Virus record (IMG/VR): IMGVR_UViG_3300017960_000013
DNA length: 64,000 nucleotides
Origin: a virus
Direction: 5' to 3' (one strand)
This document shows positions 14,485 to 63,685 of this stretch, in pieces. How positions within the stretch are numbered: position 1 is the first letter of the stretch; every line of letters starts with the position of its first letter. The position numbers and the translations under genes are program-made. The notes under the pieces are model-generated. The model saw only the letters and a program-made list of their open reading frames with translations, did no database searches and had not been told where the DNA came from.

Positions 14485-14504
14485 AACATGCTCCGCGTTT
14501 ACTA

Positions 14505-14514
14505 ATTATACAAT
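14505..14514 (-). promoter_or_regulatory. extended -10 promoter candidate (TTGTATAAT)
   Basis: Minus strand GATTGTATAAT in an intergenic gap; same motif at 17238, 25624, 32106 and 53369. Confidence 0.6.
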
Positions 14515-14590
14515 CGAAGAAGCAAAATTTATCAAAAAAATATGGGCCGCGTCATTTTTTAGACACGACCCATATTTAGAAAAATCCAGC

Positions 14591-22951: not shown

Positions 22952-23149
22952 TTAGTGAATCGAAGCGTCCCCAGTCTGCGAGTCTTCGGATTCAATTATG
23001 TTAGTACTAAACTGAAGACGTTTTGCAGACACATCTTCATTAAACATTTCTACTGCTTCTTTGTGAGCCTTTTCTTCGTTGTATTCATCCAAGCGAATTT
23101 CGTAACAACTTGAAACTTCGACCACAAAGCGATAACGTCCTTCGCTCAT
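22952..23149 (-). CDS. small hypothetical protein
   Basis: 65 aa, coupled to the AAA gene stop. Confidence 0.55.
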   Translation of the reverse strand: MSEGRYRFVVEVSSCYEIRLDEYNEEKAHKEAVEMFNEDVSAKRLQFSTNIIESEDSQTGDASIH

Positions 23150-24471
23150 CGCAGCATCTCCAAAATCTGTTCACGCAGCTTTTCATCCCCAATCAGCCAC
23201 TTCTGATTGCGCCCGTCGTTTTCCGTGCGCTTGGAAAGACGTTTGCACAATGAGTGACGAATGTCCGGAGGAACAACTTCGTTGGTGACGAACTTTTGGA
23301 AGTTTTTGATTCGCGCTGGCGTTTGCTCCGTTTCAGACTGAACCATCGTAGCAAAAAGTCGTTCGCAAGTGATGCCCAAAATATCCGTGCGCGGCTCCTT
23401 GCGCTTCATCAATTTCTTTACGCGGTCAGCAACGTTCTTCTTTCCATCAAGAACATCTTCCGGTTCAATGACGTCTTCCATATCCCTCGTGCAGAACACG
23501 AAAAACGCCGCAACCGTTTCTTCGTCCAAAAGGCTATGGGCGTGAACGGAAACGTCTTTGCGGATACCGCCACCGTCAAGGTCTTCAACGCTTGGAACGG
23601 TTTTCATGTACCGGAAAAACTCAGACAGCGTTCGCGGGTTGGTGCGCTCTTTCCCGATCATCATTTCAGGGTCAAAGAGACAAAACGAAATTCCACGGGC
23701 ATCAAGATTCTGCGACGTGGCCCATTCAGCCCACTGCTTGGCATCTTCCTGAAGCGTGATGTGTTTGATGCGCGTGATAATAGCCGCATCAATTGTCGTG
23801 ACCAGATAATCCTGTTCATCAGGGTTGCCCGTCAAAACGATATTGCAACCGGGAGGCAATTTCCACGACACCATGCCGTAGTTCTGGAGCAACTGCATGA
23901 TGCCCTTGATGATTCGGATGCTGGCGCGGTTGAAGTCATCCAGAAGCAAAATGGCAGGTCCGGGCTTGAGAGGTACCCAATCAGGCGGTGCCATAATCGT
24001 TCTCGGCGTGACGTTGGAATCAATCTGCCAACCGTCTTCCCTGAAGGCAACAACGGTCTGTTCGCGCTGCGGCACCCACTGCTCTTTCCTTTCAGAGTCC
24101 GGGCCTTTGCCCTCAATTTTGTACATCAGGATGCAGTCCATCGGAATGCCGTGAAGGTCGCCCATTTCTTCAAACTGCGCAATTGGAACATCGCGGATGT
24201 CCCAACCATCATACTTCTTGCCACGCCATTCGACGGGCGTGTTTTTGAGTTGTTTTACCAAAGCCGTTTTCCCGATGCCGGGATGCCCCCAGATACACTG
24301 GGCAAAACGCGGCTGACCACTTTGTTCATTGATGTCGTTCAGCTCGAAATTTGTCGTGATGAAAGAGAGCAGTCGATCATACTTCACGCGCTGACCATAA
24401 CAACCTTCGTACGTCTTTTCTTGTTCATTGATTTTCTTTTCTCTACGTCTCGCCATTTTTCTTCCTTTCAT
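23146..24471 (-). CDS. MoxR-like AAA+ ATPase (type usually paired with DUF2201 proteins)
   Basis: Walker A GHPGIGKT, Walker B LLLDDFNRA, LTGNP, R-finger region ITRIKH, NPRT. Confidence 0.85.
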   Translation of the reverse strand: MKGRKMARRREKKINEQEKTYEGCYGQRVKYDRLLSFITTNFELNDINEQSGQPRFAQCIWGHPGIGKTALVKQLKNTPVEWRGKKYDGWDIRDVPIAQFEEMGDLHGIPMDCILMYKIEGKGPDSERKEQWVPQREQTVVAFREDGWQIDSNVTPRTIMAPPDWVPLKPGPAILLLDDFNRASIRIIKGIMQLLQNYGMVSWKLPPGCNIVLTGNPDEQDYLVTTIDAAIITRIKHITLQEDAKQWAEWATSQNLDARGISFCLFDPEMMIGKERTNPRTLSEFFRYMKTVPSVEDLDGGGIRKDVSVHAHSLLDEETVAAFFVFCTRDMEDVIEPEDVLDGKKNVADRVKKLMKRKEPRTDILGITCERLFATMVQSETEQTPARIKNFQKFVTNEVVPPDIRHSLCKRLSKRTENDGRNQKWLIGDEKLREQILEMLR

Positions 24472-24973: not shown

Positions 24974-25618
24974 CTATTTAATCTTTTCAACGATAGTCGT
25001 ACCGTTGTCGTCCGAGAAACGCCAAGCTACATCAGCCGCTTCCTGCATTGCTTCATGATGGCTGCACATTACCGTTTGCAAATCAAGCCGGTGCGCTATT
25101 TCATGAATAAATTCAGCAGCACGATCGATCCGATCAGTCAAATCCATATGCTTCCACGGCTCATCCAAAACACAAACACGGTCAGTCTGCCGCGAAGCCA
25201 ACAAAACAAGCAACCGCAAAGGAACAGAAATCGTATCGCTAACACCGCCGCCAAATCCATTCATCGTGCGCCGTACAACTCCTTGCGATGTCTTTTTCAA
25301 AAGCTTGATTTCTGTAAAGCTGCGATTATTCTTAACATCATACACAAGCTCAACGCCGTAGTCGTTATCATAAATAAGCGACAACGCTTCAGACACGACG
25401 TTTTCAATTTGGCTTTTCATCTCACCGCGTCTTGAGTTTGCGACATCCTCAAGAAATTGCAGAGCCTCTTGCCCAAGCTCAAGCTGGATCATATTATCCG
25501 AAATTCTTCGTATATGCTCGTCGATCTGCTTGTCCAACGTCTCGTTTTCGATCTGTAAACGAAGCAACGCTTCCTTTCGCTGAATCAATTTGGTCTCTAC
25601 TTTTTGTAGCCTGTTCAT
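24974..25618 (-). CDS. SbcC/Rad50-like ABC ATPase, C-terminal half only
   Basis: Coiled coil, signature-like GFGGG, Walker B VLDEP, H-loop CSHH; no Walker A. Confidence 0.75.
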   Translation of the reverse strand: MNRLQKVETKLIQRKEALLRLQIENETLDKQIDEHIRRISDNMIQLELGQEALQFLEDVANSRRGEMKSQIENVVSEALSLIYDNDYGVELVYDVKNNRSFTEIKLLKKTSQGVVRRTMNGFGGGVSDTISVPLRLLVLLASRQTDRVCVLDEPWKHMDLTDRIDRAAEFIHEIAHRLDLQTVMCSHHEAMQEAADVAWRFSDDNGTTIVEKIK

Positions 25619-25642: not shown

Positions 25643-26257
25643 TCATTTTTGCGTGAAAAATTTGCTCGAATCAAAAACACTGTTGGTCCCCACCAAAACG
25701 AAGTGCGTTCCGTGAAAATCAAATTCCTTGTCATAATGATGATGCGCAAATACCCAAAGCTTCGGTTGATGAATTTCAAACATCATCTGAAACGCCTTCG
25801 TAGTTGGATTCAGATGGTCTGAAGTACATGCCCGTATCTGTCCAAGTACTTTCGCCGGGCATTCGTGCGTAGCAACGAAATCTGGCCTATTGGCCTCGTA
25901 AAGCTCAAGGCAATCTGAAAACTGACTGTAGGTAAGCTCTTCGCCTTTCCACCAACTCACGCCGGGAATACGCCGGTCTTTGTCAATGGAATAAGCACCG
26001 CTCACGAAAAACCAGACTTCTTTATTGAGTTGGGCGCTCCCAAAATTACCCAAGTAATTCGGATACGTTTCGCAACCCGTCGGATCATCGTGATTCCCGC
26101 GAATGAATTTATGAGGCGACGGTGTAGCAAGAATTTCTTCGCCACGCCTATCGAAACCAACGCCCATATCTCCAAGCTGAATTGAATACGGCAATTTCTT
26201 GATAATACCTTCGTAGGTATTAAATTCGCCGTGAATGTCGCCAATGAAAAACATCAC
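25643..26257 (-). CDS. metallophosphoesterase (calcineurin-like)
   Basis: GDIHG, LGDMG, RGNHD, HECP, AHHH. Confidence 0.85.
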   Translation of the reverse strand: MMFFIGDIHGEFNTYEGIIKKLPYSIQLGDMGVGFDRRGEEILATPSPHKFIRGNHDDPTGCETYPNYLGNFGSAQLNKEVWFFVSGAYSIDKDRRIPGVSWWKGEELTYSQFSDCLELYEANRPDFVATHECPAKVLGQIRACTSDHLNPTTKAFQMMFEIHQPKLWVFAHHHYDKEFDFHGTHFVLVGTNSVFDSSKFFTQK

Positions 26258-28136: not shown

Positions 28137-28302
28137 AACATGGACAAAGCGTTAAATCTTCATCCCATTTTTTAGGATTGTCAGGATATTCGTAACATGT
28201 AGCACAAAGACGAAAACCACACTCTTGACAAACATAGTCTTCAAAAAGCGCATTCGCTGGAGTAACTTCTCCGCATTCAGCACATTTCATTTCACTCATC
28301 AC
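28099..28302 (-). CDS. small zinc-finger protein
   Basis: CAECG, CQECG, CATC, CPCC. Confidence 0.6.
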   Translation of the reverse strand: MMSEMKCAECGEVTPANALFEDYVCQECGFRLCATCYEYPDNPKKWDEDLTLCPCCVEEIKRKVHDE

Positions 28303-29186
28303 GCACCCGCTTTTTCACAAAGTTCCTTAATCCTGCGCATGTAACGCATCAATTTGCCTTCTGAAACCACTGCCTCAGACAACGACCCGTAATGATGTTC
28401 GAGACAGTCCATGAGCAATTCTTTGATTGCCTCTTCATCCGGCAACTGCTGAAGCTTGGAACGTGTGTAAAGCGACTCCAAATCCTTTTCTTTTGTCGCA
28501 TACCATTCTTCAATCCGCTCTAACGACCACTCGCCACGGCGAATTTCCTTGAGCTGCTCGCGATTGCGTTCAAGGTTGATATCGCCTTCCGCCATGATCT
28601 GTTCGATTTCGTCAAGCAGCCTGACGATGTTGTAACAAAACTTCGTATCAAATCCGTATTTGTCTACGAGTTCTTTCCGCTTGCCTTCTGGTTCTTTGTT
28701 CTTCGCCTTCTTGAGCTGCGAGCCAGCGTAGTTTTTGAAGCGGTGCCAGCTGCCTTTGTGCAAGAATATTTTCCGTTTCTCCCGCACGATGCTTCCAACC
28801 TGCGTACAATGCAAGATACAGCGTTGCGGCACAAACAAAGAGTCAATGACGTTTGGGTTATTGTTCATCAACAAATTGAAGTACTTGATGATACTGAAAA
28901 TCTGAAAGTCAAACTCTGTATTTTGCTCTTTGTCTTTGACCCCGTGCTCTTGCCACTGATTGAATTTCTCCGGCTGCGTTCCAAAATTGGGAATATACCC
29001 AGCAATGTGCGGAAAGATCATATGCTTGGGCGGGATACAAAACCCGTAAAGGTCCACATCACTTGAATCAGAATGACATCCATAAGCGATGCTACCCATC
29101 ATCGTCAAGTAATGAGTATTGCTGATCACAAACCCCGGTGGATGGATCAATTTCTTATCAGCTAACTTGCGCAAATCAACTTTCAT
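28299..29186 (-). CDS. Pol-beta-superfamily nucleotidyltransferase (RlaP/YcgL-like)
   Basis: GSIAYG..SDSSDVDLYG and NPNVIDSLF motifs. Confidence 0.85.
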   Translation of the reverse strand: MKVDLRKLADKKLIHPPGFVISNTHYLTMMGSIAYGCHSDSSDVDLYGFCIPPKHMIFPHIAGYIPNFGTQPEKFNQWQEHGVKDKEQNTEFDFQIFSIIKYFNLLMNNNPNVIDSLFVPQRCILHCTQVGSIVREKRKIFLHKGSWHRFKNYAGSQLKKAKNKEPEGKRKELVDKYGFDTKFCYNIVRLLDEIEQIMAEGDINLERNREQLKEIRRGEWSLERIEEWYATKEKDLESLYTRSKLQQLPDEEAIKELLMDCLEHHYGSLSEAVVSEGKLMRYMRRIKELCEKAGA

Positions 29187-52351: not shown

Positions 52352-52447
52352 GAAAAGGTTTGCCTTGCAAAATGCAGGTGTCTCAACCACCCTTCAAAAG
52401 ACTTAACCGCATGAATCGCCATTTGCCGTGAACTTTCTTCGCATTTT
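52352..52447 (-). repeat. ~95-bp dispersed repeat, copy 1 (promoter-like), flanked by 20-bp direct repeats
   Basis: Near-identical to 59421..59515; TTTTTCATGGTTTTTCTCCA at 52331..52350 and 52444..52463. Confidence 0.9.
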
Positions 52448-55167: not shown

Positions 55168-55458
55168 TTAAGTCGCGATAAAAAGCTGGTCGAATTTAGC
55201 TTTGACAATTGCCTCTGCTTTCTTTCTCTCCCCTCCTTTTACGACTTCTGATATTCTGACTTTCTTTATGCAACCATCCTCATTTCCCACAACGTAAATC
55301 TTGCCGTTATCGGTTACCCATCCCAAGATATCTTGAACAGAGAAGTTTTTGCGTTTCTCTTCAATCTGTCGGAAGGTGGCTTTGGTCATTTTGTGATTGT
55401 CAACGCGAATCACTTTGATTTCGATAGTTGCCGTCTGGATTGTCAAATTCTTTTTCAT
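55168..55458 (-). CDS. small hypothetical protein
   Basis: Start MKKNLT after GGGGAG. Confidence 0.55.
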   Translation of the reverse strand: MKKNLTIQTATIEIKVIRVDNHKMTKATFRQIEEKRKNFSVQDILGWVTDNGKIYVVGNEDGCIKKVRISEVVKGGERKKAEAIVKAKFDQLFIAT

Positions 55459-55965: not shown

Positions 55966-56205
55966 TTATTTCCTCCCCGCTGCCCTAAGCTTTGACAACA
56001 TTTTCTTCGTTGCCCCTTCTCTCATAAAAGAACAATCCGGAGAAAGTGAAACTTCAATGTAATATGTGTTACCAACGCCTTTCTTATAAAATACACCAAA
56101 GACGCCACGAGTTTGAATAAGTTGTAATCGTAATTGTGTTACTTCGTTTTCCGTACAATCCCACATCGTGAAATGAAATGTGGGATAATTGAATAAGAAC
56201 TTCAT
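55966..56205 (-). CDS. small hypothetical protein
   Basis: 79 aa, AAGGAG RBS. Confidence 0.55.
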   Translation of the reverse strand: MKFLFNYPTFHFTMWDCTENEVTQLRLQLIQTRGVFGVFYKKGVGNTYYIEVSLSPDCSFMREGATKKMLSKLRAAGRK

Positions 56206-56346
56206 TCTTCATTCTCCTTATGTGGGCAAACGCTTTCACATTCCCCGACGCCGAGGATTCTTACAACCGCACATTCATCGGCGCATTCAGGGAACGGGAC
56301 GTCTTTAAGCTCTTGAGTTGTCTTCACGCTTTCATTCCTTTAGAAA

Positions 56347-56511
56347 AGGAGGGCAACTCCCGCTCCCGGCTATTTAACTCCGGTCATGACTAACTCTGAG
56401 GCTTCCTCTTTCGAAGGTTTCATCCTATAATTAAGGGCATTGGGAATCCAACCCAATCAGAGCAGACTGCGGGAGTTTGGAAGCTTACTGCGCTTCACGG
56501 TACGCCCTCCT
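56347..56511 (-). ncRNA. candidate structured RNA (~165 nt, multi-branched)
   Basis: Nested inverted repeats AGGAGGGC/GCCCTCCT, AACTCCCGC/GCGGGAGTT and CTCTGA/TCAGAG enclosing three hairpins. Confidence 0.5.
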
Positions 56512-56692
56512 ATTGTGGTTCTGTCTTTGAGGTTTCACTTTCCTCTTTGCTGCAATTCGAACAGAAATCGACACCATCAAAACTGGTCCAGCCTGTAGCC
56601 TTTGCCATATCACGCAAGTGCTTTTCGTCGTCACCCTGTCCGAACTCATAACAACACTTATCACAGGCTAAAGAATATGTCGCTTCGATCAT
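56510..56692 (-). CDS. small zinc-finger protein
   Basis: CDKC ... CSNC. Confidence 0.55.
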   Translation of the reverse strand: MIEATYSLACDKCCYEFGQGDDEKHLRDMAKATGWTSFDGVDFCSNCSKEESETSKTEPQ

Positions 56693-56701
56693 GCTTCCTC
56701 C

Positions 56702-57013
56702 TTACGGCCAACGGGTCATTTCAGTAAGCTGCTTGCCTTTCAGCACGATGGGAACGTCACAGCGAAGGTACGCAATGTCCTCGTCAAGATTTCCGATGTG
56801 GATGGCTTCCAACTGCTTGGCAAACTTCTTGAGACCTTCGCGTGCGCTTTTTACGGTTTCGTTGAAGTCCTTGTCGTCTGAAGCCGGAAGAACTTCCGCC
56901 AGCTCCTCCAGATACTGCTGGCCATTATCGATGGCTACAATAGTCGCGTCGTACTGTCTGAGCAAGAACCGGAACCGTTCCAATGCCTTTCTCTGCTTTT
57001 TCGTCATAGCCAT
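56702..57013 (-). CDS. small helical protein
   Basis: 103 aa, AGGAG RBS. Confidence 0.6.
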   Translation of the reverse strand: MAMTKKQRKALERFRFLLRQYDATIVAIDNGQQYLEELAEVLPASDDKDFNETVKSAREGLKKFAKQLEAIHIGNLDEDIAYLRCDVPIVLKGKQLTEMTRWP

Positions 57014-57246: not shown

Positions 57247-57918
57247 TCACTCGCCGTTTCTTTTTCGTTCAAAGGCCAAGTCCTCTTCAAAACCGGAGAA
57301 CACGGCTAAAAGCTTCTGAACGTGCTCCGCTGAATACTCTCGGGACGGGTCGATTCGTATCGTGAATTTGCCCCTCCCTTTCGCGTGAATTCCGAACGTG
57401 TGTTTCCCAACGTTGTACGAGCAGCTGGTTGCGTTTTCACGCGGGTAGGTGGCGTTGGGAAAGTGTTTGTGAAGGTCTGCTACCTGTCCCTTTTCGTAGT
57501 TTTTTAGTTTGATCTGCTTGTCAATGAATTCGTGAATTTCATCCATCATAGCGTCGCACCGCTCGTGCATGCTTTTCGCAGCCTTATCCAGATTCTTGAT
57601 CTGGTCAAAATCCGAATTGATGCGGCGTTCTCGGATGCGGTCATCCCCGTTTCCCACGCGGCTGGGCGTAGCCACGATTTTGTTGGTAACTTGGCTTCTG
57701 CTCCAACCGTGGTAAAAACTCTTACGGCGAATGGTGATTTTAACTTCTTCGCCGTACGTCTCTTTGCGGACAATGTGCCAATGTTGCGGTTTCATCTTGC
57801 CCTCATCATTTTCCATGACGAGTTTGTAGACGTTTCCAGACAGGTTGTTGAGCATGACGTGAAATCGCACCCAGAAGTTCCTGCATTCGTCTTGCTTTTT
57901 TGGCAGTAATTCGCTCAT
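57247..57918 (-). CDS. hypothetical protein
   Basis: Likely start MSELLP. Confidence 0.6.
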   Translation of the reverse strand: MSELLPKKQDECRNFWVRFHVMLNNLSGNVYKLVMENDEGKMKPQHWHIVRKETYGEEVKITIRRKSFYHGWSRSQVTNKIVATPSRVGNGDDRIRERRINSDFDQIKNLDKAAKSMHERCDAMMDEIHEFIDKQIKLKNYEKGQVADLHKHFPNATYPRENATSCSYNVGKHTFGIHAKGRGKFTIRIDPSREYSAEHVQKLLAVFSGFEEDLAFERKRNGE

Positions 57919-58283
57919 GATATTTCCCTCACAAACCGCTCTTGGCCAAAGAGTTTTGTCCATTCTTCGATTACGTACTCATAGCGGTATGCAGTCCGGC
58001 TTTCATTGAATGAAACTCCATTGTTCTCGTCAATCCAATCTCTTTTCTTTTGAGCTTTTTCAAGCGTAACTACTTTGATCTCCCATGGGCCTTGCGCCGC
58101 GCACATGTAATGCGGGTGTTGGCACACTGGCGGCAAATCTTTCGCTGCGACAAGCTCTCCATTTTGACTATGGTACATTACCGGAACCGCTTTGATCTTG
58201 AAGAATGTTGAGTGTTCTGAAAATTCCGGTTCAACAGGCTTTGGTCTCGGCTTGACCGTTCCATTACACGCATAGTTACTCAT
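57915..58283 (-). CDS. hypothetical protein
   Basis: 122 aa, AAAGGA RBS. Confidence 0.6.
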   Translation of the reverse strand: MSNYACNGTVKPRPKPVEPEFSEHSTFFKIKAVPVMYHSQNGELVAAKDLPPVCQHPHYMCAAQGPWEIKVVTLEKAQKKRDWIDENNGVSFNESRTAYRYEYVIEEWTKLFGQERFVREIS

Positions 58284-58303
58284 GATCGCATCCTTTCAAT
58301 CCG

Positions 58304-58419
58304 TCAACGGCAGACAGGATTCCCGTACTGGCGAACAGTATGGGCGACACGCCAGCCGCAAGAGACTTAACGAGGGGACAAACCCCGGCCCATTTCGTGG
58401 ACGAATCCTGTCGCCGTCG
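58304..58419 (-). ncRNA. candidate structured leader RNA or ncRNA
   Basis: Long stem 58308..58322 / 58402..58415 enclosing hairpins, one with a UUCG-containing loop. Confidence 0.4.
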
Positions 58420-58442
58420 AGGATTTATTCATGTCCCTCAAG

Positions 58443-58492
58443 AAAAAAATGGGGTGGCTGAATCTCCCGCGCAAAGGAAGACCAGCCACCCC
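58443..58492 (-). terminator. intrinsic terminator
   Basis: GGGGTGGCTG/CAGCCACCCC 10-bp stem followed by a T7 tract on the minus strand, downstream of the DUF6744-like gene. Confidence 0.8.
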
Positions 58493-58511
58493 TGCCGTAG
58501 AGGGAGGACGG

Positions 58512-59420: not shown

Positions 59421-59515
59421 GAAAAGGTTTGCCTTGCAAATGCAGGTGTCCAAACCACCCTTCAAAAGACTTAACCGCATGAATCGCCATTTGCCGTGAA
59501 CTTTCTTCGCATTTT
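59421..59515 (-). repeat. ~95-bp dispersed repeat, copy 2 (promoter-like)
   Basis: Differs from copy 1 at only ~3 positions; lies immediately before the RBS of 58512..59402. Confidence 0.9.
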
Positions 59516-59944
59516 ACGCAGTTTTTTTGTGGCCCGTTTCTTGTTCTCGTTCAACAACTTACGCGTCTTATCTCTTCGGCTTATCTTCTCTTTGGGCGGT
59601 TCGGTTAGTTCGAAGGTGATAACGGTGGAAACCTTCGACATGGATTTGAAGACCTCGTCAGCGCCGTAGCCTTTCATCGATAGGTTGCGTAGCTGATCGA
59701 AAAAGTCATCGTCGGTGTCCGTGTCGATGTCGCCATAGACAAACAGCACATTGTTTTCTGAGAGCATGATTTCAGTTGGTTCGCGGAACACGTACTTCTT
59801 GCTCCTGAAGATTATTTCGATTTCATGCCGGAGCACATCGCGGTAAACGTCTTCCACGACACCGCGCACTTTGTCGCCACCCATGCGTTGGGGAAGTTTG
59901 AACTTGACCACCTTGCCAATCATTTCGTAAATCAGGTAGCGCAT
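59471..59944 (-). CDS. hypothetical protein
   Basis: Likely start MRYLIY; the 3' end runs into repeat copy 2. Confidence 0.55.
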   Translation of the reverse strand: MRYLIYEMIGKVVKFKLPQRMGGDKVRGVVEDVYRDVLRHEIEIIFRSKKYVFREPTEIMLSENNVLFVYGDIDTDTDDDFFDQLRNLSMKGYGADEVFKSMSKVSTVITFELTEPPKEKISRRDKTRKLLNENKKRATKKLRKMRRKFTANGDSCG

Positions 59945-60102
59945 TGAATCCCCTTCTGCTCGTTTTTTGTAACATAAAGGACAAGGCTTATTGTCCAATC
60001 GCACTTTGTGCAACACACATAAGCTTGTCCCCACCTTTTGACTTCAAGTGAAGACTTGCATTGCGGACAATCCTCAAGATTAACTTTTGGCATGACTTCC
60101 CC

Positions 60103-61570: not shown

Positions 61571-61613
61571 AAGAAAAAAAAGAGGGGCTGGGCTGAGCGG
61601 GACCCAGCCCCTC
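61569..61613 (-). terminator. intrinsic terminator
   Basis: GAGGGGCTGGG/CCCAGCCCCTC 11-bp stem followed by a T8 tract on the minus strand, downstream of the AAA gene. Confidence 0.88.
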
Positions 61614-61659
61614 GCCGCATATGCGCCTCTCCCAATGAGGCGCTACGGAGGGTTGACTG

Positions 61660-62934: not shown

Positions 62935-62983
62935 CCTTCAAAAGACTTAACCGCATGCAACCCCATTTGCCGTGAACTTTCTT
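62935..62983 (-). repeat. 49-bp core of the dispersed repeat, copy 3 (promoter-like)
   Basis: Matches 52391..52439 and 59459..59507 except in a 6-nt central spacer; upstream of the AAA gene. Confidence 0.85.
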
Positions 62984-62992
62984 GACATTTTC

Positions 62993-63685
62993 TTAGGTTT
63001 TTTTGGCCACGTTCGATTGATCCGAATCGTTACTCTCGTTGGGTTCGAACCACACAAACCGCTTCACGTCGAATTCGCCCACGACGCCACTATCGTCCGC
63101 TACGCAAACGAGGTCGCCCTCGCTCGCCACGAGCGGGTAGCCTTTGGATAGGGTAAGGTTTGCCCCGGTATTATTGACGCAATAGGCGAGGGGGAAGTCC
63201 ATTACGCTTCCATCACCAATAGCAAGGCGAAAGTCGGTTAGCGTATGATAGTCGTCGGGGTTCTCCTCGCTGGAGATATTGAACTTGTCGTCCGTTCGGC
63301 TCACCTTGACCCAGCGCCCGGTTTCGATATCGCAGACCAGAATGCCGGTGCGTAGGTTGGTGCCATCGATGATCTCAAAGCACTCATGATTGTAATAGCC
63401 GCCATCCAGAATACCATATTGCGTTTCTGTTGCGCGGTCAATCACAACCACCTGTCCAGTTTCGTAATTGCAGGGAATCGTTCCAAGCCATGCGGCGTAC
63501 ACCATCTCGTATTCCCGAAAACATTCGCCCTCAAACTCGAACTTTTGCCTGTCCTGATTCTCATCAAGGACGTAGAACTTCTTGCGCCCAACTGCATCAA
63601 CTTCAAGAACATCACGCGCTGCATAGATTTTCTCCTCGATGAAATCTCCCTCGTCAGCACCACCCTTGTACTTCATGAAATACAT
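62993..63685 (-). CDS. hypothetical acidic beta-rich protein
   Basis: 230 aa, GGAGG RBS. Confidence 0.6.
   Translation of the reverse strand: MYFMKYKGGADEGDFIEEKIYAARDVLEVDAVGRKKFYVLDENQDRQKFEFEGECFREYEMVYAAWLGTIPCNYETGQVVVIDRATETQYGILDGGYYNHECFEIIDGTNLRTGILVCDIETGRWVKVSRTDDKFNISSEENPDDYHTLTDFRLAIGDGSVMDFPLAYCVNNTGANLTLSKGYPLVASEGDLVCVADDSGVVGEFDVKRFVWFEPNESNDSDQSNVAKKT

What the first reader, a model, noticed from the sequence alone, without database searches (positions are those of the whole stretch)
56347..56511. Multi-branched structured RNA candidate with a cloverleaf-like inner domain
Seen: an 8-bp plus 9-bp closing helix with a side hairpin (GAAGC/GCTTC) and a CCGG hairpin. An inner CTCTGA/TCAGAG stem encloses three arms (minus strand): TTGGG-TTGGATT-CCCAA with a T-loop-like 7-nt loop, CCT-TAATTAT-AGG, and CTTC-GAAA-GAGG with a GNRA loop. 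The element starts right at an upstream stop codon and ends in a short U run. Established: tRNA-mimic ncRNAs with permuted arm order, such as bacterial and phage Y RNAs, exist. Inference: an undescribed ncRNA or tRNA mimic. The match to tRNA is imperfect: G at the C56-equivalent position and no D-loop GG.
Basis: partly seen in the sequence, partly recalled or inferred. Interest (0 to 1): 0.6.

Follow-up and report, generated by a model that had tools for sequence, protein, structure and literature searches.

The report
Branched tRNA-like RNA between phage genes
A 165-base gap between two small genes of an uncultured giant phage folds into a stable branched RNA whose first half keeps the upper half of a tRNA. 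It has no known relatives, so whether it is a working mRNA-processing signal or a decayed tRNA gene could not be settled.

Summary
The 8+9 bp closing helix, the GAAGC hairpin, the CCGG hairpin and the CUCUGA/UCAGAG stem all have pairing probability above 0.95. The fold scores z -3.0 against shuffles, and the closing helix is the best composite helix in the window.

Rfam and ARAGORN find nothing. The 5' 77 nt nevertheless has tRNA geometry in normal order: a 7-bp acceptor, U8A9 and a T arm abutting the acceptor 3' strand. A descriptor for this geometry recovered 16 of 16 real tRNAs and otherwise hit only here. With C56 restored, the T arm plus acceptor strand equals real tRNA-Pro 3' ends. There is no D arm or usable anticodon loop.

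The far 3' strand re-pairs the acceptor 5' strand, which is also a Shine-Dalgarno sequence. That clamped fold is 20 kcal/mol more stable.

No homologue could be retrieved, so covariation is untested.

My best reading (0.4) is a non-decoding tRNA-like punctuation or processing module inside a polycistronic mRNA. The main rival (0.28) is a decayed tRNA relic. Earlier notes of this scan report similar tRNA top-half elements in other phages; they are unverified and not sequence-related.

The parts
56347..56511 (-). whole structured element (165 nt) filling the 182-nt gap between two small ORFs
   Evidence: MFE -62.1 kcal/mol, z -2.97
56504..56511 (-). P1 5' strand AGGAGGGC. It overlaps the upstream stop codon and is also a Shine-Dalgarno-like sequence
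56347..56354 (-). P1 3' strand GCCCUCCU (the 'far' partner, anti-SD-like), followed by UUU-C-U
56480..56496 (-). P2 hairpin GAAGC-GCAGUAA-GCUUC. The 5-bp stem and 7-nt loop have anticodon-arm geometry, but position 33 is C
   Evidence: P 0.98-1.0
56469..56477 (-). P3 5' strand AACUCCCGC
56355..56363 (-). P3 3' strand GCGGGAGUU, contiguous with the P1 3' strand. Together they form a 17-nt clamp
56457..56462 (-). P4 5' strand CUCUGA. Its UGA is the stop of the 13-codon mini-ORF
56394..56399 (-). P4 3' strand UCAGAG
56440..56456 (-). T-arm-like hairpin UUGGG-UUGGAUU-CCCAA: G53-C61, U54, U55, R57 and A58 are present, and position 56 is G instead of C
56433..56439 (-). 'near' acceptor-like 3' strand UGCCCUU, directly abutting the T stem. 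It pairs with GAGGGCG (56509-56503) over 7 bp, 2 of them G-U
56433..56509 (-). 77-nt tRNA-sized module: acceptor, U8A9, 46-nt middle without a D arm, T arm
56366..56383 (-). P5 hairpin CCGG-AGUUAAAUAG-CCGG
   Evidence: P 0.95-0.97
56457..56498 (-). possible 13-codon mini-ORF (GUG ... UGA) 7 nt after AGGAGGG. Translating it would unwind P2-P4
   Evidence: not shown to be translated
56510..56692 (-). upstream 60-aa Cys-rich ORF; its UAG stop abuts the element
56202..56327 (-). downstream 41-aa Cys-rich ORF with the phage's standard AAAGGA-N8-GUG start

Best explanation
The gap holds a tRNA-derived, non-decoding tRNA-like module (77 nt, 56509-56433). It keeps only the 'top half' that tRNA-processing enzymes read: a 7-bp acceptor stem stacked on a T arm. 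This module is fused to a 3' extension whose last 17 nt re-pair with the acceptor 5' strand and with a second segment.

The element lies inside a polycistronic mRNA, exactly between a stop codon and the next ribosome-binding site. I propose that it acts in cis as a punctuation, processing or stability element. While the RNA is being made, the first 84-115 nt fold as a four-way, tRNA-shaped junction. Host RNase P or RNase Z, and possibly the phage's own CCA-adding enzyme, could cut or cap that junction. Once the 3' clamp is transcribed, it locks the RNA into the more stable closed fold. The closed fold also hides a strong Shine-Dalgarno-like sequence and would block exonucleases.

Shown here: the folds, their statistics, the tRNA geometry and the match to tRNA-Pro 3' ends. 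Inferred: transcription as one mRNA, any cleavage, and the switch between the two folds.
For: The tRNA geometry is specific. A descriptor (7-bp acceptor with at most 2 G-U, a 20-75 nt insert, a 5-bp T stem closed by G-C, loop UUNRANN, T stem abutting the acceptor 3' strand) hits once in both strands of the window, at this element. It hits 0.02 times per shuffled strand. It recovers 16 of 16 ARAGORN tRNAs in other loci and gives no other hit in about 421 kb of real DNA.

With C56 restored, the 21-mer is identical to the 3' ends of tRNA-Pro(CGG) genes in 4 CPR genomes.

The acceptor keeps 7 of 7 pairs and the T arm 5 of 5, while the D and anticodon regions are unrecognisable. This is selective retention of the top half.

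The first 84-115 nt have a four-way junction closed by this acceptor as their MFE.

The whole element folds unusually well on the sense strand only, and its clamp is the top composite helix in the window.

Its borders coincide with the upstream stop codon and the next RBS.

The phage encodes a CCA-adding enzyme and an RlaP RNA-repair protein.

t-elements of this logic are documented in plant mitochondria (PMC1920247).
Against: No homologue was found anywhere I could search, so there is no conservation or covariation evidence.

The descriptor was written after seeing the element, with position 56 relaxed.

The tRNA-like half on its own is not unusually stable (z -1.3).

In the full element the tRNA-like fold is 20 kcal/mol worse than the clamped fold.

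Rfam's tRNA model and ARAGORN at default thresholds reject it. The ARAGORN hit at -ps80 is at noise level, with 32 such hits in the window.

All robust pairs are Watson-Crick, as expected for a young or templated inverted repeat.

The region belongs to a lineage-specific insert that is absent from the nearest long relative.
Confidence: 0.4

Rival explanations
1. It is a relic: a phage tRNA gene that once sat between two ORFs has decayed beyond function. The long-range clamp arose by chance or by a templated (quasi-palindrome) mutation. Nothing is selected now.
For: There is no D arm, position 33 is C and position 56 is G, and both ARAGORN and Rfam reject it. It is a singleton with no homologue. 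It sits in a variable, lineage-specific region. All 17 clamp pairs are perfect Watson-Crick, with none of the G-U pairs typical of old RNA helices. The gap's frame 2 has start and stop 'grammar' and intermediate codon scores, so the DNA may be decaying coding or tRNA sequence.
Against: Neutral decay should break the acceptor and T stems as fast as the other arms, yet 12 of 12 top-half pairs survive, 2 of them as G-U. A composite helix of at least 17 bp is rare. The sense strand folds 7.8 kcal/mol better than the antisense strand. Phage genomes this tightly packed seldom keep 182 nt of useless DNA (gap list).
Confidence: 0.28
2. It is a stable trans-acting small RNA cut out of the mRNA. It would be a tRNA mimic that serves as a decoy or substrate for tRNA-targeting host defences or for the phage's CCA-adding and RNA-repair enzymes, in the manner of phage T4 species 1/2 RNAs or of Y RNAs.
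For: It has a tRNA-like top half. A closing stem encloses a compact domain, as in excised stable RNAs. The phage carries CCA-adding enzyme and RlaP genes. M. smegmatis YrlA is cut by RNase P and receives CCA (PMC4201824).
Against: No promoter or terminator of its own was found (the phage's own terminators carry 7-8 U). No Ro60/TROVE protein was found among the 50 window proteins scanned. There is no YrlA model hit. The RNA-repair genes lie more than 22 kb away. Conservation is unknown.
Confidence: 0.15
3. It is a translational control device. AGGAGGG-N7-GUG starts a 13-codon leader ORF whose Shine-Dalgarno sequence is sequestered by the far anti-SD-like strand. Whether the clamp is open or closed depends on a ribosome terminating at the upstream UAG or translating the leader. 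When the clamp is open, UCCUUU can pair with the next gene's AAAGGA.
For: The SD-start spacing matches real genes of this phage. The stop codon overlaps the SD, as at other junctions. The alternative hairpin UCCUUU/AAAGGA (-4.2 kcal/mol) shares 4 nt with the P1 3' strand. The mini-ORF stop lies inside P4.
Against: About half of the GGAGG motifs on this strand are not starts. The alternative hairpin is no better than shuffles. The 42-codon read-through product has no real homologue. This reading does not explain the tRNA geometry.
Confidence: 0.1
4. It is a DNA-level element, such as a single-strand initiation or origin-like site or a protein-binding inverted repeat, rather than an RNA.
For: All robust pairs are Watson-Crick, so both DNA strands can form them.
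Against: Nested, multi-branched pairing is not what duplex-DNA sites look like. The sense-strand RNA folds better (z -2.97 against -1.73). There is no GC- or AT-skew change at the site. There are no repeats of it elsewhere in the window.
Confidence: 0.05

Closest known systems
t-elements of plant mitochondria and mitochondrial tRNA punctuation (Forner et al. 2007, PMC1920247)
   Same: A non-decoding tRNA-like structure lies inside a longer transcript at a gene border. It keeps the acceptor and T-arm features that RNase P and RNase Z read. Here the module starts one base after the stop codon.
   Different: This is a phage in a bacterial setting, and no cleavage has been shown. The module carries a 3' clamp that competes for the acceptor 5' strand, which t-elements are not described as having. 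It is a single copy with no family.
Bacterial and phage Y RNAs of the YrlA type (Chen et al. 2014, PMC4201824)
   Same: Both have a closing stem formed by the 5' and 3' ends around a domain with a T-arm-like hairpin. Both are possible RNase P and CCA-adding substrates.
   Different: YrlA lies next to a Ro60 (Rsr) gene, carries a GNCGAAN0-1G motif and a D-arm mimic, and its T and D arms are permuted around an acceptor-like stem-loop. None of these was found here.
Phage T4 species 1 and species 2 RNAs (rnaC, rnaD), from my own knowledge and not checked in a paper here
   Same: Phage-encoded stable RNAs of 120-140 nt with tRNA-like ends and extra arms, of unknown function.
   Different: The T4 RNAs lie in the tRNA gene cluster and are known stable species. 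This element is alone between protein-coding genes, and its expression is unknown.
Intercistronic mRNA stabiliser or processing stem-loops (E. coli REP elements, phage T7 RNase III sites), from my own knowledge
   Same: A stable structure sits exactly between cistrons of a polycistronic mRNA and would block exonucleases or serve as a cleavage site.
   Different: Those are simple or bulged hairpins present in many copies. This one is branched, single-copy and tRNA-like.
D-armless mitochondrial tRNAs, from my own knowledge
   Same: Acceptor, anticodon-type hairpin and T arm with no D arm, in a tRNA-sized molecule.
   Different: Those tRNAs decode. Here position 33 is C, there is a 23-nt extra region, and no tRNA model accepts the sequence.

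Membership tests
tRNA (Rfam RF00005 / ARAGORN) | Recognised by a tRNA covariance model or by ARAGORN at default thresholds | tested here: not met
   ARAGORN finds 0 genes in the window. Rfam shows no tRNA hit at E<=10 in 56150-56750. The only ARAGORN hit comes at -ps80, where the window gives 32 hits.
tRNA (Rfam RF00005 / ARAGORN) | 7-bp acceptor stem, with the T stem (5 bp, G53-C61) directly abutting the acceptor 3' strand | tested here: met
   GAGGGCG/UGCCCUU (2 G-U) and UUGGG/CCCAA. The descriptor's only hit in the window is here, and it recovers 16 of 16 true tRNAs elsewhere.
tRNA (Rfam RF00005 / ARAGORN) | T loop U54-U55-C56-R57-A58 | tested here: not met
   The loop is UUGGAUU, so position 56 is G. 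U54, U55, R57 and A58 are present.
tRNA (Rfam RF00005 / ARAGORN) | D arm with G18G19, and an anticodon loop with U33 | tested here: not met
   Only UACCGU lies between the acceptor and the first hairpin. That hairpin's loop is GCAGUAA, with C at position 33.
YrlA-type Y RNA | Encoded next to a Ro60/Rsr (TROVE) gene | tested here: not met
   There was no TROVE hit among the 50 window proteins scanned. These included the 10 nearest neighbours on either side of the element and every ORF of 400 aa or more, by Pfam or PHROGs. The rest of the genome (at least 338 kb) was not available.
YrlA-type Y RNA | Matches the Rfam Y-RNA/YrlA models and carries the GNCGAAN0-1G motif (PMC4201824) | tested here: not met
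   No Rfam hit. The nearest sequence string is UUCGAAAG, which does not fit GNCGAA.
t-element / tRNA punctuation signal | tRNA-like top half located at a cistron border inside a longer transcript | tested here: met
   The module starts at 56509, one base after the UAG stop, and all genes lie on one strand with no terminator upstream.
t-element / tRNA punctuation signal | Endonucleolytic cleavage by RNase P or RNase Z at its borders | not testable with these tools
   This needs RNA end mapping or in vitro cleavage.
Intrinsic terminator | G+C-rich hairpin immediately followed by a long U tract | tested here: not met
   The scan finds none here. The phage's own terminators are simple hairpins followed by 7-8 U. 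Here a branched domain is followed by UUUU-C-U.
Riboswitch or other curated cis-regulatory RNA | Match to a curated family, or conserved aptamer architecture across homologues | tested here: inconclusive
   There is no Rfam match. No homologues are available to define conserved architecture.

The most novel reading that the evidence does not exclude
It is a two-state phage RNA device. A tRNA top-half mimic forms first during transcription and can be cut by tRNA-processing enzymes. A built-in 17-nt antisense clamp then captures its acceptor strand, which is also a Shine-Dalgarno sequence. Timing or translation of the upstream gene would thus decide whether the polycistronic mRNA is cut at this gene border. 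This would be a regulated form of tRNA punctuation not described in bacteria or phages.
Probability: 0.15. Interest if true: 0.7.

Novelty: new variant of a known kind. Interest (0 to 1): 0.38.

Why it matters
If it is functional, it would add to the signs that phages place tRNA-shaped, non-decoding RNA modules between genes to borrow the host's tRNA-processing enzymes for cutting or stabilising their long mRNAs. That logic is so far documented mainly for organelles. The competing clamp would add a regulatory layer. As it stands, this is a single sequence with no comparative or expression support. Its present value is as a well-defined candidate with exact coordinates for RNA end mapping, not as a discovery.

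Tried and rejected
Known RNA families and tRNA finders
- Rfam at gathering thresholds on the whole window, and at E<=10 on 56150-56750, gave only two chance-level hits: mir-317 and NPPA-AS1.
- ARAGORN at default thresholds found none. Relaxed thresholds give noise-level hits, 32 at -ps80.

Searches for homologues, all negative
- blastn 'distant' against GenBank phages.
- An exact 28-mer, an 18-mer and a 17-mer against IMG/VR. The 7 hits to the 17-mer were chance matches, one of them inside a coding region.
- Flanking 238-aa protein. It has one relative, in Logan and not fetchable. There are no loci in IMG/VR, JGI metagenomes or GenBank phages.
- ATPase 5 kb upstream: no close locus.
- TerL gave 12 related huge-phage records. 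Covariance model R1, the tRNA-like 22-mer with up to 3 mismatches, and the flanking protein all found nothing in them.
- The one long relative (253 kb) is syntenic for the ATPase through DUF6744 and then skips the whole 25.6-58.5 kb stretch of the window.
- The 96-aa downstream family gave 13 loci, none with the element.
- There are no paralogues in the window.

Coding readings
- A 42-codon ORF read with TGA as a residue found no word-sharing protein.
- The single HMMER hit (P0025, E 7e-4) is a repeat-inflated match to a spurious-looking repetitive ORF.
- The codon score is intermediate and not significant.

Other readings rejected
- Terminator, sigma-70 promoter and the phage's own 23-nt promoter-like motif are all absent at the site.
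- By eye, hammerhead, twister, T-box, tmRNA, SECIS and intron readings each lack their core motifs, and Rfam agrees.
- A host guess from the tRNA-Pro (CPR) match: four species matching a 21-mer is too thin.

Full report
Context. The window is part of an uncultivated giant phage. It carries a portal, a large terminase, a CCA-adding enzyme and an RlaP RNA-repair protein. Proteins of this region occur on a contig of 338,319 nt. Every gene is on the minus strand and most are packed with little or no spacer. The finding lies in a 182-nt gap (56328-56509). Upstream is a 60-aa Cys-rich ORF whose UAG stop is at 56512-56510. Downstream is a 41-aa Cys-rich ORF that starts with the phage's usual AAAGGA-N8-start signal. 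None of the ten nearest neighbours on either side has a meaningful Pfam or PHROG assignment.

Checking the observation. Folded as minus-strand RNA, 56511-56347 gives -62.1 kcal/mol and z -2.97, with 1 of 200 dinucleotide shuffles as good. The plus strand gives -54.3 and z -1.73. In the partition function these five helices have probabilities of about 0.95-1.0:
- the 8-bp outer helix;
- the GAAGC hairpin;
- the 9-bp second helix;
- the CCGG hairpin;
- the CUCUGA/UCAGAG stem.

Against 532 same-length windows of the phage's own sense strand, corrected for GC, the element ranks fourth. The better ones I folded hold canonical terminators with 7-8 U. The 8+9 bp perfect helix is contiguous on its 3' side and interrupted by a 26-nt hairpin-bearing insert on its 5' side. 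It is the best such composite in the window, and one of at least 17 bp appeared in 1 of 20 whole-window shuffles. The outer architecture is therefore real and unlikely to be chance.

It costs 3.7 kcal/mol more than the MFE. Its T-like hairpin has probability of about 0.5, and its other two arms are below 0.3. All robust pairs are Watson-Crick, so only the energy difference between the strands argues for the sense RNA.

What it is not. Rfam 15 has no match at gathering thresholds, and only two chance-level hits at E<=10. ARAGORN finds no tRNA or tmRNA. The site has no sigma-70-like promoter and no terminator-like hairpin. It lacks the extended -10 motif TGTATAAT that the phage uses elsewhere. 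It also lacks the 23-nt promoter-like motif noted earlier in this window, whose three copies I confirmed. The short UUUU-C-U tail is unlike the phage's own terminators.

A tRNA-like half in canonical order. Relaxed ARAGORN (-ps80) drew a cloverleaf on 56509-56432. The 5' strand GAGGGCG also pairs, over 7 bp with two G-U, with UGCCCUU. That strand directly follows the T-like hairpin UUGGG-UUGGAUU-CCCAA, exactly as a tRNA acceptor 3' strand follows the T stem. U8 and A9 follow the 5' strand, and the whole module is 77 nt.

I wrote a descriptor for this geometry. It hits once in both strands of the window, at this element, and 0.02 times per shuffled strand. In other loci it recovered all 16 ARAGORN-called tRNAs and nothing else in about 421 kb. 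The descriptor is post hoc, with position 56 left free, so the true significance is lower, but the geometry is clearly tRNA-specific.

With C restored at position 56, the 21-mer covering the T arm and acceptor 3' strand matched 6 places in 185,579 species genomes. Four are the 3' ends of tRNA-Pro(CGG) genes of CPR bacteria. The rest of the element does not resemble tRNA-Pro. There is no D arm. The one hairpin with anticodon-arm dimensions has C at position 33. So this is not a decoding tRNA.

Two competing folds. The first 84-115 nt have as their MFE a four-way junction closed by the tRNA-like acceptor, although this half alone is not unusually stable (z -1.3). In the complete element the far 3' strand, GCGGGAGUU-GCCCUCC, captures both the acceptor 5' strand and AACUCCCGC. 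That fold is 20 kcal/mol better. The T-like hairpin is compatible with both folds.

The contested 5' strand, AGGAGGG, is also a perfect Shine-Dalgarno sequence. It overlaps the upstream stop and lies 7 nt before a GUG, the same grammar as real gene starts in this phage. It opens only a 13-codon ORF. Read through its TGA, the 42-codon product has no credible homologue. Its codon score is intermediate. Across the gap this frame carries two stops in 51 codons, the random expectation. When the clamp is open, UCCUUU could pair with the next gene's AAAGGA, but that hairpin is no better than chance.

Homologues. I found none. These searches all failed:
- sequence searches of GenBank phages and IMG/VR;
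- protein-anchored searches with three neighbours in IMG/VR and JGI metagenomes;
- a covariance model (R1) run on 12 related huge-phage records, on 13 loci of a neighbouring protein family and on the window itself.

The only long relative is syntenic up to the DUF6744 gene 2 kb upstream. It then continues with homologues of window genes at 24-25 kb, so the element lies in a lineage-specific block.

Interpretation. Two independent oddities sit in the one sizeable gap of this operon that has no terminator: a rare perfect clamp and a tRNA-specific top half. I give about two chances in three that the structure is under selection.

The selective survival of the top half points to the part of a tRNA read by RNase P, RNase Z and CCA-adding enzymes. 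All 12 acceptor and T-stem pairs are kept, while the D and anticodon regions are gone. The module also begins one base after a stop codon. My best reading (0.4) is therefore a t-element-like punctuation or stability module in the polycistronic mRNA (compare PMC1920247), with the clamp as a competing, more stable state.

The rivals are:
- a decayed tRNA gene with a fortuitous or templated inverted repeat (0.28);
- an excised trans-acting tRNA-mimic RNA (0.15);
- a leader-ORF / SD-sequestration switch (0.1);
- a DNA-level element (0.05).

The Y-RNA analogy fails its tests (PMC4201824). There is no Ro60 gene among the proteins scanned, no model hit and no GNCGAA motif.

Relation to earlier notes of this scan. 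A word search returned several unverified AI notes describing tRNA top-half mimics between genes of other phages. None is a sequence look-alike of this element. They are leads only. They supplied the t-element comparison paper, which I checked.

Verdict. This is a real, well-defined structure with partial, non-decoding tRNA character. It is a singleton, and its function and conservation are untested. Interest is moderate to low until homologous contigs or RNA end maps are examined.

Noticed in passing
window 58284-58511 (minus strand): This gap holds a canonical terminator (GGGGUGGCUG...CAGCCACCCC followed by 7 U). After it comes a 130-nt multi-branched domain closed by a helix of about 22 bp, ending 8 nt before an AAAGGA RBS. 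The whole gap gives -106 kcal/mol and z -4.4 to -5.3, a stronger fold than the target. There is no Rfam hit at gathering thresholds.
   Followed up: partly
window 14485-14590 and 61571-61659 (minus strand): Both gaps hold textbook intrinsic terminators with 7-8 U. The first is followed by a TGTATAAT extended -10 motif. That motif occurs 5 times in the window, all on the minus strand, against 0.9 expected.
   Followed up: partly
window 52391-52413, 59459-59481, 62935-62957 (minus strand): An invariant 23-nt motif, CATGCGGTTAAGTCTTTTGAAGG, occurs three times, each upstream of an RBS. There is no further copy with up to 3 mismatches. It is probably a phage-specific promoter. There is none near the target.
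   Followed up: partly
window 55168-55458 (minus strand): The gene here is 96 aa rather than the 162-aa ORF. It belongs to an unannotated small-protein family with a near-invariant N-terminus (LEIKTATIEIKV.RVDGHKMTKATF.QI) and C-terminus (DQLFIAT). The family occurs in phage contigs, marine and other metagenomes, and a Lamprobacter MAG.
   Followed up: partly
window 28299-29186 and 25643-26257 (minus strand): An RlaP (RNA-repair-pathway Pol-beta nucleotidyltransferase) gene and a metallophosphoesterase gene lie within a few kb of the CCA-adding enzyme (32506-34008). Together they suggest an RNA or tRNA repair module, yet the window holds no tRNA gene.
   Followed up: no
L016 (G003:C1:46000-64000) compared with window 23-64 kb: The 253-kb relative keeps the order 62993-63685 homologue, AAA ATPase, 59471-60034 homologue, DUF6744. 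It then continues directly with homologues of window genes 24974-25618 and 23146-24471. The 25.6-58.5 kb stretch of the window is therefore a lineage-specific block.
   Followed up: partly
window 57247-57963 (minus strand): The 238-aa ORF probably starts at its Met16, giving 207 aa. Both its own database entry and its only relative (57% identity) begin there.
   Followed up: partly
protein P0025 (ENA contig of 6.7 kb, not fetchable): This 208-aa repetitive ORF carries the string LGWIP three times. LGWIP is the translation of the T-arm-like UUGGGUUGGAUUCCC. It could be a spurious ORF across tandem RNA-like repeats. The similarity to the element is inflated by the repeats and is not significant.
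   Followed up: partly
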